Assembly: GCA_964016885.1 (NCBI GenBank)
Contig: OZ024741.1
Span: 185,194,001-185,258,000 of the forward strand
From: Eledone cirrhosa
Taxonomy: Eukaryota
DNA length: 64,000 bases
Reading direction: 5' to 3'
The notes under the pieces were generated by a model, which was given only the letters and a program-made list of their open reading frames with translations, ran no database searches and was not told the origin of the DNA. Of the stretch, positions 47,931-58,960 are shown piece by piece (position 1 is the first letter of the stretch; each line of letters begins with the position of its first letter). The translations under genes were made by a program, and so were the position numbers.

Positions 47931-49020
47931 ACGAAGGAAATGTGGTAGGGAACCAGGTGGACCATAACGCACCAAAGTACTCAATACTTGAGGTAGTAGA
48001 GTGGGTAATAGGAACCAGTAAGACCCCGACAGCTGAGCTCAAGCCGTTTCGACGGCTAATTCTGGACTAAATGAAAATTTATCCTGGTATTTAAATAGCC
48101 GATCTTCTCAAGGGGTAATTCCATATATGGTCAAAGTGATTGTCAAAAATCAGTAGTAATTCTGTGGTTGCAAATTAGTAGGGGAGATGGTGGCTAAACC
48201 TGCCAGTAGGAGAAAGAGGGGAGGGGGTGGAGTAGACCCAATCAAGCGTTGGTAGTGACAGCTACAGCTGGGCATGAGGTCAAAGAAGATACAGGGGAGG
48301 AGAAGGGGGAAGAAGTCGGAACGGTAGGTAGAACAATGGGATTAGAAATATATAGGAAAGAAAAAATACTGAGAGTGAAGAAAAGCAAATAAGTGTAAAG
48401 AAAAAAGTAAAGTAAATTAAATTCTACGACCTAGGTCTCAGGCTATTGTTAGGCTAGAAAAAAATAAAGAAAGAAAGAAAGAAGTAAAGAAAGAAATAAA
48501 TAAAGAAATAACGAAATAAGTAAAAGAACTAGGTGGGACGGATTAGGCAAGGACCCTTTTAAGAGGTATAAGTACGTAAATGATACGGTGACGGGTCAAC
48601 AAAAGGGGCCAAAATACTAAAGAGACTACCACGAAATAAACAATAAAGGTTTCCATCCCGGGCCAGCAACGACCCAGTGCAGCAAAGTGAACTTGTACGA
48701 GATAATAATTCTGAGTCCCGAGAAAAATATATACTAATGCTAACTCTAAAAGATCTAAAACAAGTTACATGAAAGTTCGTACGAAATAAAGGTAGAATAC
48801 GGAGAAATAAATTCAGAATCCACCCCGCCCAGAAGAAAAGCGAAGCAAGAAATACTGAAACGAAAAAATAAGGCATAAGTGCCACTAAGAAATATAGAGG
48901 GCACAGAGGAATTACCCCTTGAGAAGATCGGCTATTTAAATACCAGGATAAATTTTCATTTAGTCCAGAATTAGCCGTCGAAACGGCTTGAGCTCAGCTG
49001 TCGGGGTCTTACTGGTTCCT
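47931..49020. mobile_element. 1.1 kb non-coding element with ~113 bp inverted termini (48009-48122 / 48909-49020) and left-only tail, between (TA)n tracts
   Basis: Direct comparison of the termini; each contains a variant hammerhead. Confidence 0.85.
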
Positions 49021-49549
49021 ATATATATATAGGAACCAGTAAGACCCCGACAGCTGAGCTCAAGCCGTTTCGACGGCTAATTCTGGACTAAATGAAAATT
49101 TATCCTGGTATTTAAATAGCCGATCTTCTCAAGGGGTAATTCCTCTGTGCCCTCTATATTTCTTAGTGGCACTTATGCCTTATTTTTTCGTTTCAGTATT
49201 TCTTGCTTCGCTTTTCTTCTGGGCGGGGTGGATTCTGAATTTATTTCTCCGTATTCTACCTTTATTTCGTACGAACTTTCATGTAACTTGTTTTAGATCT
49301 TTTAGAGTTAGCATTAGTATATATTTTTCTCGGGACTCAGAATTATTATCTCGTACAAGTTCACTTTGCTGCACTGGGTCGTTGCTGGCCCGGGATGGAA
49401 ACCTTTATTGTTTATTTCGTGGTAGTCTCTTTAGTATTTTGGCCCCTTTTGTTGACCCGTCACCGTATCATTTACGTACTTATACCTCTTAAAAGGGTCC
49501 TTGCCTAATCCGTCCCACCTAGTTCTTTTACTTATTTCGTTATTTCTTT
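48502..49549. repeat. ~520 bp-arm palindrome centred on the (TA) tract at 49021-49030
   Basis: Mirror ORFs 48559-48885 and 49166-49492 translate identically; coordinates sum to 98051. Confidence 0.9.
48914..49007 (+). ncRNA. Variant type I hammerhead ribozyme with U3-A8 core and long stem II (copies at 48023-48116 - and 49044-49137 -)
   Basis: acccc-UUGAGAA-ga(t)cggcta...tagccgtc-GAAAC GGCU ugagcuc AGCU GUC-ggggt. Confidence 0.7.
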
Positions 49550-49634
49550 TACTTATGCGTCTTCACGAGTGTATCTATATTGAAAAAGAAAGGAGCGTAT
49601 ATATATATATATATATATATATATATATATATAT

Positions 49635-52600
49635 ATAGAAAGATTTGAATGGATACAGTTTAGTTGAAAGGAATTTATTGACACGTGTTTCTATAACAGT
49701 TACATAACCTAAAACAGCTATCTACAAACTTTTAGTTATGCAGACATTCAATATTTCAATGTTATTGTTTACTGTCATTTCATCAGAATAATATTACTGA
49801 GGACCTATTTAGTTTTTATAGAGAATATTAGGAGGAAGGGGTGAAGTTGTTAGAAGAATAGTTGAAGGAGTGGTTTTTCGATAGCAGTGAGAATTCTTGG
49901 TGGCAGTGATTAATTAGATTCCCATCTGTTGTTTTGACATTTTTTATAGAATATATTATTGGTTATTTTTCTAAATCTATAGAAGGATTAGAGATAGTAA
50001 AGATATGCGTGGTTGGTTTTGTGTTTGCACTTAACATTCAGACTTAAATTTTTCTTTCAAGTGTACGTATTCTTTCACCCACGCATTCACACACAAATAT
50101 ATTTGCACACCTCTACAAAATACATATACTCACAATTCACATATTCATACTTACATATATATACACATGCATACACATATATATACACACATGTATTCAT
50201 GTACATACATACGCGCTCATGTGTATACATTTTCATACTCAACTTATCTTTATATATACACACGTATAGACACACACATATATACATACATACTCTAGTC
50301 CATGTGTACACACATACACATACATACACATCCATATACACATACATACATACACATATATATATACATATATACATATACATATATATACATATATATA
50401 TATATATATATATATATATACACATACATATATACACACATATACACACACACATATATATATATATATATAAGCACTTTAATACATGAATACACTTACA
50501 TCTAACTATACACATCAAACATATATATATATTTACTTATTTATATACATTTTCACATATATATACATACTTATGGACGTTTTTAGACACATTCATTATC
50601 GCATATTTGTACCTATTCTCATCAGCATATCTTTTCATTATTAGTATGGTAATTTAAGGTTATTAATATATGTTGAAAAGAGATTGTTTTTATATTTTTC
50701 TAACTAGATTAAGGTTTATATAGTTGGGGGATGTCCCTCTTTTATGTAATATTCGGCTTGTAGTGGGAAAAAAGGGTTTTAGTTCTGTGACGGCAGAATA
50801 ATGTTCGTTCAATTCTGTTATTCAGCAGTTTCTTCTTGTGTGTGATTATGTAATAAATCTCAAGATTACACAATTTGCAGAAATTTTGGCTCCTGGAAAA
50901 GCTTTGGGTTTTAGCTAATTTTTCCCATTTTAGGGTAAACTTTTGATTGCTATCCCTGAGCGTCCAAGCTTTCTCTGCTAAAGTTGTTACATTTCTTTGG
51001 CTCTGGTGTTTTATTGAGTAAGAATGCCTATACAATCGAGATTTAAACGATGTTGCCGTTGATCCCACGTAATACCACTCGTTGCCTCCGGATTTAATGG
51101 TACACTTATAAATAATATTTTTTTCCAGGCAGTTATTGCCGAGGGGGCAGTTGTCAGGATAGGTGCAGTTACAGTTGTGTACGTTGGGTTTTCTCTGGAG
51201 TAGTATTGCGGACGAACTTAGGTGTGGTTTATTTATGTTCTGTAGTGTATTGTCTACTGTTTTTTGGGGGTTCTTTGTACTTAAGTTCTTAGTGTTTTCG
51301 TTTAACCTTCTAGTATTGATCTTTTTTATGTGTTGTTCAAGGTTTAACGCTGTAGAGTATGACAGTCTTATAGTGGTAGGGTTTAGGATTTTGTGGTATT
51401 TGTGTGATGTGGGAAAATGTCTTTTAATTATTTTAAAGAAGAGTACTGGTAAATTTGTACTAATGGAGCTATTGTATTCGGGGTTATACCATAAGTACTC
51501 TTTGCATCGCTTTCTATTAGTTTTGTTTGTTGGTTTACTGGTGTGCATACTATGGTAGTAAGTGTGGTTTGGTGTTGTGTTATTATATCTACCTATGTGG
51601 GATTTATTTTGGGTGTTTTGATTGTTCCCATCTATGTACTCTATTTTGTTGAGGTAGCCTGCTTTACTAAGGGCGTTATCGTAGTACTCGGCGTGTTCCT
51701 TAAATACTTGTATGTTAGAAGATAGACCCGAGATTCTAAGGGAAATATTTTTAGGGATAGATTTAATTATAGAGATGGGGTGGTTAGACCCAACATTTAC
51801 GTATTTGAGATTTTCATTCAATTTATGAAACGGTTTAATCAAACCAGAGTTTAAATTGAGTGTGACATCCAGGAAGTTAACTACTTTAAGGTTGTATTCA
51901 TATGTTATAGTTAGTCCTATTTCGAGTAGTAGTTTTCTTATATCTTTGCGTAGTTTTTCTAGTTTTTGGTTATTAAGGTTTTTAGCTAGGAGGAGAACAT
52001 CGTCGCGGTATATTCCGCCGTGGAGATTGCTGAATTTTTCCTGGAGTCCAAAGGCGATAAATAACCCCACAATATCAGTTATTTCCGCCGAATCGTTAGA
52101 GCCCATTGTTATGTCAAAGTTAGAGGGTCTATCTTTACGTACCCAATAACTGTTCTCAAATTTGACTATAGTTTTCCTAGCTTCTAATATAATCTTAATT
52201 TCATCGTTTGTAAGGTCGGAGTTATCCTTAGCAAACTTAATGGCTCTATTCAAAGTTTCAGGTGATATCGATGAGTAATATTCATCGATATCAAACTGGA
52301 TAAACTTAGATTTATTCTTATTGCTAATGCTATTAAACCATCTTATTGCTTCTTGGGTCTTCCCCCAGAGTTTAATGTTAACCTTAGCCTTAATTTGGGG
52401 GATGATTCTATCTAAGATATATTTGCTTATTTTACCTATATCTGATTTAGAGGGGCAGATTAATCTAATTTTAGGGTCATTATCAAAGTTTACCTTGTGG
52501 TCCTTAAGATTGAAAGTGGGTACCGCCGGTAAGAGTGGTCCTGTCCTATCTACGATTCCGAGATTTTTCACTATTTCGCATGCCTCATCATTGATGTGCT

Positions 52601-58415: not shown

Positions 58416-58613
58416 TATATATATATATATATATATATATATATATACATATATATATATATATATATATACATATATATATATATATATATACATATAT
58501 ATATATATATATATATATATATATATATATATATATATATATATATATATATATATATATATATATATATATATATATATATATATATATATATATATAT
58601 ATATATATATATA
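58416..58613. repeat. (TA)n target tract of the PLE
   Basis: ~200 bp of TA dinucleotide. Confidence 0.95.
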
Positions 58614-58649
58614 CGCTCCTTTCTTTTTCAATATAGATACACTCGTGAA

Positions 58650-58960
58650 GACGCATGGCCTAGTGGTGAGATCATTGGGCTTGCAATTGAAAGGTTGTGA
58701 GTTCGATTCTCGGACCGGTTCATGGGTTCTGTCCTTGAACAAGACCTTTTATTTCACGCTGCTCAAGTTCACTCAGCTGTAAAAATGAGTTGAGACGTCA
58801 CTGATGCCAAGCTGTATCGGCCATAGCCTTTCCTTTGGACATCATCGGTGGCGTGGAGAGTGGAGGCTGGTATGCACGGGTGACTGCTGGGCCACAAAAC
58901 AACCATGCCCGGAGGGAAACTTTCTATGTGCAAATCATATGGTTATTCGTGACCCACGGT
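58650..58960 (+). mobile_element. tRNA-derived SINE (family B), near full length
   Basis: A box tggcctagtgg, B box gagttcgattctc, core gtccttgaacaagaccttttatttcac..ctcagctgtaaaaatgagt. Confidence 0.8.

What the first reader, a model, noticed from the sequence alone, without database searches (positions are those of the whole stretch)
48502..58656. The PLE insertion appears to have duplicated both neighbouring flanks in inverted orientation
Seen: the order is L-(TA)n-L' | X'-(TA)n-E'-E-(TA)n-X. L' (49031-49549) mirrors 48502-49020. X' (49555-49597, atgcgtcttcacgagtgtatctatattgaaaaagaaaggagcg) is the exact 43-bp reverse complement of X (58614-58656), which runs on into a SINE head and is therefore likely the original flank. 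Inference: the pre-insertion allele was L-(TA)n-X. After the cut, one end snapped back on self-complementary TA and copied ~520 bp of L, while the cDNA end folded back and copied the element, the TA tract and 43 bp of X before the ends were joined at 49550-49555. This would be an inverted target-flank duplication instead of an ordinary TSD.
Basis: partly seen in the sequence, partly recalled or inferred. Interest (0 to 1): 0.85.

Follow-up and report, generated by a model that had tools for sequence, protein, structure and literature searches.

The report
Retroelement site with mirrored flanks
A very young Penelope-like retrotransposon sits in a TA repeat where both neighbouring DNA stretches are also present as exact mirror-image copies, likely because a cut DNA end folded back and copied its surroundings while the element was being inserted.

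Summary
L' (49026-49549) is an exact 524-bp mirror of 48502-49025. X' (49555-49597) is an exact mirror of 58614-58656, and that 43-mer occurs only twice in the 3.0-Gb assembly. L is not plain host DNA: it is the end of an older insertion of a second TA-targeting repeat family. L' copies that insertion's private junction, so it is a local duplicate.

The proposed mechanism is half wrong. E'-E is not a fold-back copy: it is asymmetric and has the family's normal two-armed shape (81 of 135 other loci). The L'/X' join shows a short templated slip and a 2-bp microhomology, as in snap-back end joining.

One-sided inverted flank copies occur at 3 of 137 other insertions surveyed; no second two-sided case was seen. 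The likeliest explanation is one endonuclease cut in (TA)n: the left end snapped back, jumped to the right flank and rebuilt a TA end that primed the second arm. Repair before or after insertion remains possible, and no spanning reads were available. One-sided versions are published for L1.

The parts
47869..47930 (.). (TA)31 tract at the outer end of the older family-B insertion
47931..48908 (-). Long arm of an older insertion of a second high-copy, TA-targeting, two-armed repeat family (B; PLE-like by geometry, no ORF tested); 8 private differences in 901 bp against 19 other copies
48908..49022 (+). Short 115-bp inverted arm of the family-B insertion, ending at TA; its junction with the long arm is private to this locus
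48502..49019 (+). L, the original left flank segment that was duplicated
49020..49031 (.). 12-bp TA tract at the centre of the 1048-bp perfect palindrome (inferred snap-back point)
49032..49549 (-). L', exact inverted copy of L including the private B junction and a private substitution (48765)
49544..49556 (+). L'/X' join: a 13-bp repeat of 49523-49535 (templated slip giving 5 extra bases, 49550-49554) whose last 2 bases (AT) are shared with X'
49555..49597 (-). X', exact 43-bp inverted copy of the right flank
49598..49637 (.). (TA)20 tract between X' and the short-ended PLE arm
49635..54421 (-). E', PLE family-A arm: unit 2285-3593 then 1-3478 (short end, no tail); open frame 50742-53099; 2 private substitutions
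54416..58420 (+). E, PLE family-A arm: pLTR (unit 3182-3593) then the full 3593-bp unit; joined head-to-head to E' over a 6-bp overlap
54877..57198 (+). [quoted passage not shown]
   Evidence: motif names recalled
58306..58420 (+). 115-bp tail, present at only one outer end
58416..58613 (.). 198-bp TA tract with three short interruptions
58614..58656 (+). X, original right flank; overlaps the head of an old SINE-like repeat that continues to about 58760

Best explanation
Both flanks of this insertion site are present as exact inverted copies next to a normal two-armed Penelope-like insertion, and the copies were likely made in the same event as the insertion. Inferred steps: the element's endonuclease cut both strands of the (TA)n tract between L and X. 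The right end primed the tailed arm E. The left end, instead of priming, folded back on its own TA and was extended about 520 nt along L. The growing strand slipped back 21 nt, which created a 2-nt match, jumped onto the right flank 43 nt from the tract, and copied X and TA back towards the cut. That rebuilt TA end primed the second arm E', and the two cDNA arms were joined head-to-head as usual. The structure is shown; the order of steps and the enzyme (host polymerase theta-type or the RT itself) are inferred.
For: Exact local copies: 0 differences in 519 + 43 bp, with the private junction copied, matching the youth of E (no private change at the two polarised sites; nearest genomic copy 4456 vs 4461 bits). 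Both PLE arms have family-standard ends in TA, and both are attached to X'-TA, so the left arm needed a copied X end. The join has a templated slip plus 2-bp microhomology, the pattern of SD-MMEJ (PMC5728401, passages). Single steps of the model are seen at other family-A sites. L177: a one-armed insertion whose cDNA 5' end joins a fold-back of the opposite flank centred on TA; 301 bp at 99.7%; sequence found only at that locus. [quoted passage not shown] L096: 236-bp inverted local copy, 99.6%, at an aberrant end. A PLE protein cleaves and extends both strands in vitro (PMC11167929, parts 1-2 of 4 read). L1 insertions show one-sided inverted flank duplications, one primed by 2-bp TA/AT (10.1101/2024.12.14.628481 section 9; PMC10191854 passage). 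Chance co-location is unlikely: 1412 family-A ends against roughly 2 million TA tracts (my extrapolation from 158 tracts in 200 kb).
Against: No other two-sided case in 137 loci; 0 of 53 informative two-ended insertions have directly mirrored flanks. TA-centred mirror arms also occur with no family-A element at the centre: 8 of 1158 informative tracts in the surveyed loci and 1 more in the window (20027-20134), against 0 of 93 in 20 control regions, so TA tracts fold back without this element. Zero divergence dates the copy only weakly, because the B copy has just 1 private change inside L. L173 fits other orders of events equally well. No read or contig spanning the joins was seen. The left TA tract is pure and 40 bp, the right one is 198 bp with interruptions, so the copy did not visibly run to a shared cut point.
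Confidence: 0.55

Rival explanations
1. A break in the (TA)n tract, for example by cruciform cleavage, was repaired first with both ends folded back (L-TA-L' joined to X'-TA-X). The PLE later inserted normally into the TA centre of the new X'/X palindrome, perhaps because such centres are good substrates.
For: E'-E is a fully normal insertion with TA on both sides. TA-centred mirrors exist without family A: L214, L062, L218, window 20027-20134, and L216 around an unrelated 2.6-kb insert. AT/TA repeats form cruciforms acted on by structure-selective nucleases (PMC12972899, search listing and abstract start only).
Against: It needs a second, independent hit on one particular tract (about 1400 insertions among some 2 million tracts, extrapolated), and the arms show no divergence although B is older.
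Confidence: 0.2
2. The PLE inserted normally first. Later, or during second-strand synthesis, single-stranded E and E' paired as a 3.9-kb stem, which brought the left TA tract next to TA-X. A 3' end in TA copied 43 nt of X and was joined to a snapped-back left end.
For: The arms are 99.9% identical over 3890 bp and explain how X, 9 kb away, could be the template. An L1 case is reported in which the inversion involves the RT end and includes the insertion.
Against: None of the other long-armed insertions surveyed shows this. L177 has one arm only and still has a flank fold-back, so a paired stem is not needed there.
Confidence: 0.15
3. Library or assembly artefact: chimeric fold-back reads (missing adapters or whole-genome amplification) around a long inverted repeat were assembled into the consensus.
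For: The copies are 100% identical; no listed contig or read spans the joins; the assembly has N gaps inside other family-A insertions (L059, L089, L105).
Against: It needs two separate fold-backs plus a 5-base templated slip. E' has its own family-standard end and 2 private changes, so it is not a read-level mirror of E. Similar local inverted copies elsewhere have diverged (98.3%, 99.6%, 99.7%), which a read chimera would not give.
Confidence: 0.08
4. One reading: one cDNA folded back and copied the whole element, the TA tract and 43 bp of X.
For: X'-TA-E' is in the order expected of a mirror of E-TA-X; the microsatellite-rich 3' parts are 100% identical between arms.
Against: E' lacks the 115-bp tail, has 1.3 kb with no mirror in E, and ends where the second arm ends in the other two-armed insertions.
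Confidence: 0.02

Closest known systems
Canonical EN+ Penelope-like insertions: partial tandem, adjacent inverted 5'-truncated copy, tail at one end (PMC8557442 passages; PMC3846280 passages; PMC11167929 parts 1-2)
   Same: E'-E has pLTR partial tandems, a head-to-head inverted arm, a tail at one end only and (TA)n targeting.
   Different: The tail is 115 bp, not 30-40 bp. The passages read describe short direct TSDs or none; none describes inverted copies of the host flanks.
L1 insertions with foldback / inverted duplication of target DNA (PMC10191854: 3 plus 1 cases, 0.3% and 0.1%, about 52-220 bp; 10.1101/2024.12.14.628481 section 9)
   Same: An unprimed target end self-anneals through a tiny hairpin (TA/AT in one case) and is extended into an inverted copy of the flank. 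L177 matches this closely.
   Different: Those cases are one-sided and the fold-back joins the cDNA end. Here both flanks are copied, the copies are joined to each other, the longer is about 520 bp, and both cDNA arms hang on the same flank sequence.
SD-MMEJ / polymerase theta-type end joining, snap-back and loop-out (PMC5728401 passages)
   Same: Snap-back priming on TA/AT, a templated slip that creates a new microhomology, then joining.
   Different: SD-MMEJ is described as limited, non-processive synthesis; 520 nt is much longer. The enzyme was not tested here.

Membership tests
EN+ Penelope-like element, C-terminal EN | Single ORF with an RT domain | tested here: met
   773-aa ORF with KADKT and YRDD motifs; 296 homologues, of which P0098 has a weak RVT_1 match below cut-off. 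The ORF itself has no Pfam or PDB match.
EN+ Penelope-like element, C-terminal EN | C-terminal GIY-YIG endonuclease with CCHH motif | tested here: inconclusive
   GIY-YIG-like and Cys/His motifs at residues 649-735 read by eye (motif pattern recalled); no profile match; not folded.
EN+ Penelope-like element, C-terminal EN | pLTR partial tandem, adjacent inverted copy and one-sided tail | tested here: met
EN+ Penelope-like element, C-terminal EN | Hammerhead ribozyme in the pLTR | tested here: inconclusive
   No hammerhead match in Rfam at E <= 1 over 47800-59200; minimal or split hammerheads could be missed.
Neptune or Nematis clade | Cys-rich linker before the EN, and placement in an RT tree | not tested
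   A Cys-rich linker is present at residue 631; no tree was built, so the clade is not assigned.
Retrotransposon-associated foldback inverted duplication (L1 type) | Inverted copy of local flank DNA next to the insertion | tested here: met
Retrotransposon-associated foldback inverted duplication (L1 type) | Turn at a small self-annealing hairpin | tested here: met
   12-bp TA centre at 49020-49031
Retrotransposon-associated foldback inverted duplication (L1 type) | Fold-back on the unprimed end only, joined to the cDNA end | tested here: not met
   L' joins X', and X'-TA precedes a normal second arm. Met at L177.
Retrotransposon-associated foldback inverted duplication (L1 type) | Duplication and insertion arose in one event (empty allele known) | not testable with these tools
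   No second haplotype in the assembly (one exact hit); public runs uninformative.
SD-MMEJ / TMEJ junction | Templated insertion from nearby sequence plus short microhomology | tested here: met
   13-bp repeat 49523-49535 / 49544-49556 and 2 shared bases
SD-MMEJ / TMEJ junction | Dependence on polymerase theta | not testable with these tools
   needs genetics or biochemistry
MITE / DNA transposon (considered for L) | Fixed terminal inverted repeats shared by family copies | tested here: not met
   The 115-bp inversion is private; the other 19 copies share only positions 1-905 and then continue differently.

The most novel reading that the evidence does not exclude
In TA-targeting PLEs the two arms need not be primed by the two sides of the cut. 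An end can snap back or jump to the opposite flank, rebuild a TA end and prime there, possibly driven by the PLE reverse transcriptase copying DNA. About 2% of insertions then leave a mirror copy of host DNA, which would make these elements a steady germline source of host palindromes. This locus would be a single-pass record of four template switches: snap-back, slip, flank jump, RNA.
Probability: 0.25. Interest if true: 0.65.

Novelty: new variant of a known kind. Interest (0 to 1): 0.4.

Why it matters
How PLEs build their head-to-head insertions is unresolved; the papers read call for mechanistic work. Aberrant insertions show what the two target ends do. This site, with L177, L173 and L096, suggests that ends are free and double-stranded, can self-prime on TA, and that both arms can hang on one flank. 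That can be tested in the published in vitro PLE assay with a (TA)n target. If it holds, TA-targeting PLEs add fragile palindromes of host DNA, at a rate (3 of 137 here, small numbers, hand-curated) above the 0.3-0.4% reported for L1. As it stands it is one non-coding rearrangement with no sign of function.

Tried and rejected
L as a MITE with terminal inverted repeats: rejected, the inversion is private. L' as an independent family-B insertion: rejected, it carries the private junction and a private base. X as a common repeat: rejected for the exact 43-mer, although its last ~26 bp belong to an old SINE-like family.

Search for more TA-centred B-end mirrors with up to 20 bp of TA: 5 places; the 4 others have arms of only 10-25 bp.

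Public runs: 4 of 13 listed runs were laid on 49021-49610. They show family-B repeats; X4 and X5 (one sample) cover 49561-49610 at depth 13 and 9.6, but no listed piece, joint or loose end tells whether the L'/X' join or the empty allele is there (196 loose ends and 11448 pieces not shown). Inconclusive.

Pfam and PDB gave nothing for the ORF. Rfam gave only hairpin and microsatellite matches below gathering scores. The first self-BLAST was swamped by microsatellites, and the first TA-palindrome scan was mostly low-complexity noise (redone). The 'unique' filter cannot tell low-copy two-armed elements from host duplications, so it was used only to list candidates. L167 (inverted repeats around the insertion, TA at both outer ends) was read as an older two-armed element and not counted; its copy number was not tested. 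L187 and L204 were left out and checked separately with nothing found. The control set is 20 regions, half of what was planned.

Literature: searches listed no paper on inverted host-flank duplication at PLE insertions, judged from listings and the passages read; supplements were not read and most subscription papers are not in the library. Earlier scan notes showed long direct duplications and two-armed PLEs, no inverted flank copies.
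Full report
Observation. The window has no N. Direct comparison gives 0 mismatches between 48502-49020 and 49031-49549, and the palindrome extends 524 bp each way from a 12-bp TA centre. 49555-49597 is the exact reverse complement of 58614-58656. That 43-mer occurs twice in the 3.0-Gb assembly, both times here. X continues into an old SINE-like repeat whose best other copies are 84-91% identical; X' stops after 43 bp, so X is the original.

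What L is. 47931-49022 is a whole insertion of a second repeat family, B: 2324 first-look candidates, the best 40 at 97-99%. It has a long arm ending in TA at 47930 and a 115-bp inverted arm ending in TA at 49020. Nineteen other copies share only the first 905 bp of the 48008-49022 query and then continue differently. The junction at 48908 is private: a 34-mer across it has two matches, in L and L'. L' also shares a base that differs from all 19 copies. L' is therefore a local DNA copy, not a second insertion.

What E'-E is. The ORF (773 aa from the first ATG) has RT motifs and a C-terminal Cys/His-rich, GIY-YIG-like region (motif names recalled). It has 296 homologues, one with a weak RVT_1 match, but no Pfam or PDB match of its own. 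The repeat unit is 3593 bp. E' covers unit 2285-3593 plus 1-3478 on the minus strand; E covers 3182-3593 plus 1-3593. I fetched 137 other family-A loci: 57 from best-hit lists and the first 80 of 1412 short-end/TA junctions, all on contig C1. In 81 of the 135 scored, both outer ends lie at unit 3478 or 3593 in TA; many of the rest are one-armed, broken by microsatellite differences, or unresolved. This head-to-head shape with a one-sided tail is the described PLE architecture (PMC8557442 and PMC3846280, passages). The tail corresponds to two RT start sites, and the protein cleaves and extends both strands (PMC11167929, parts 1-2 of 4). So E' is an ordinary second arm. It lacks the tail, has 1.3 kb with no mirror in E, and has two private substitutions.

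The join. 49544-49556 repeats 49523-49535, and its last two bases are also the first two of X'. Read along the top strand, synthesis of L' slipped back 21 nt, added 5 bases and thereby gained a 2-nt match to X. This is the loop-out/snap-back pattern of SD-MMEJ (PMC5728401, passages), though 520 nt is long for that pathway.

Survey. No other locus has both flanks duplicated, and 0 of 53 informative two-ended insertions have directly mirrored flanks. Three of 137, picked by hand from script lists, have a one-sided inverted local copy; about 9 of the 137 lack one resolved end. L177 (C1:88.41 Mb): a one-armed insertion whose 5' end joins a TA-centred fold-back of the right flank, 301 bp at 99.7%; the sequence has three close matches in the genome, all local, one being an older 98% inverted copy. 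L173 (C1:84.52 Mb): unique left-flank DNA recurs inverted on the right of a two-armed insertion, 98.3%, two copies in the genome, with other small inserts between. L096 (C3:335.41 Mb): 236 bp of nearby left flank, itself repeat-derived, recurs inverted at 99.6% at an aberrant end; the next best match in my collection is 91%. Against a special role for family A: TA-centred mirror arms occur at 8 of 1158 informative tracts in these loci (one is L177; three were not inspected closely), at 2 of 61 in the window and at 0 of 93 in 20 control regions. L216 has 81-bp perfect mirror arms around an unrelated insert.

Mechanism. All models start from L-(TA)n-X (inferred). Both PLE arms are attached to X'-TA, so one primer had to be a copy of the right end. 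The simplest single event: a double-strand cut in TA; the right end primes E; the left end snaps back, copies about 520 nt, slips, jumps to X, copies 43 nt plus TA, and primes E' (0.55; this includes variants such as two sister-chromatid ends, which the sequence cannot separate). L177 shows the snap-back step alone, and L173 is compatible with the jump step. Rivals: double fold-back repair first and a later normal insertion (0.2); rearrangement after insertion through pairing of the 3.9-kb arms (0.15); artefact (0.08); whole-element fold-back (0.02). Timing favours coupling only weakly. The co-location argument rests on an extrapolated tract count and could fail if palindrome centres attract the endonuclease.

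Reads. Of 13 listed runs, 4 were laid on 49021-49610. They confirm family B and show low-depth contigs over the X' interval in one sample, but nothing listed spans or contradicts the join. The artefact question is open, though the slip at the join, the independent identity of E' and the diverged analogues argue against it.

Comparison and novelty. One-sided foldback duplication of target DNA is published for L1: 3 plus 1 cases (0.3% and 0.1%), about 52-220 bp (PMC10191854, passage), and a case primed by 2-bp TA/AT (10.1101/2024.12.14.628481, passages and section 9). Five searches listed nothing on inverted host-flank copies at PLE insertions, nor a two-sided case; the library lacks most subscription papers and supplements were not read. 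Verdict: a real structure in the assembly and a new variant of a known kind of retrotransposition by-product, useful as a clue to PLE integration. Interest 0.4.

Noticed in passing
G000, family A (window 54828-58420): A very young, abundant PLE family: 1412 exact short-end/TA junctions and 40 of 40 scored hits covering the ORF region at about 100% identity.
   Followed up: partly
window 44696-47873: 3.2-kb palindrome, 95.6% overall with long stretches at 99%, right end in TA; probably another two-armed element next to the B insertion.
   Followed up: no
window 20027-20134: TA-centred mirror of about 45 bp that resembles the end of a third repeat family; an older, small fold-back.
   Followed up: partly
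window 13576-13893, 17347-17485, 29702-30048, 30733-31291: Further 139-559-bp palindromes with non-TA centres, most with TA at or near an outer end; likely short two-armed insertions.
   Followed up: no
L106 3150-3902, L108 2641-3436, L109 2581-3348: Near-symmetric family-A micro-insertions that all turn at unit 3137-3156, hinting at a preferred turn point or RNA 5' end; Rfam found no hammerhead in the window copy.
   Followed up: no
L055 5950-6920, L072 5310-5740: A single family-A arm followed directly by two-armed pieces of other families; nested insertion or switching between RNAs.
   Followed up: no
L216 1256-4027: 81-bp perfect mirror arms with TA on the inner sides around a 2.6-kb insert that ends in CTAG (Helitron-like, recalled).
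   Followed up: partly
L214 8438-8505: 26-bp TA-centred fold-back followed by TA and the end of another repeat family: a small analogue of L-TA-L'.
   Followed up: partly
L227 1510-1801: Family-B end region repeated about six times in tandem at an arm junction, suggesting repeated slippage.
   Followed up: no
L203 and L204 (G000:C1:126842068 and 126848967): The same small family-A insertion appears twice 6.9 kb apart, probably a later tandem duplication.
   Followed up: no
L068 flanks: 65-bp direct duplication (98.5%, partly microsatellite) across a two-armed insertion, a possible long TSD.
   Followed up: no
window 37565-37905: 168-bp tandem repeat related to dispersed SINE-like copies at 6336, 9535 and 62149.
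   Followed up: no
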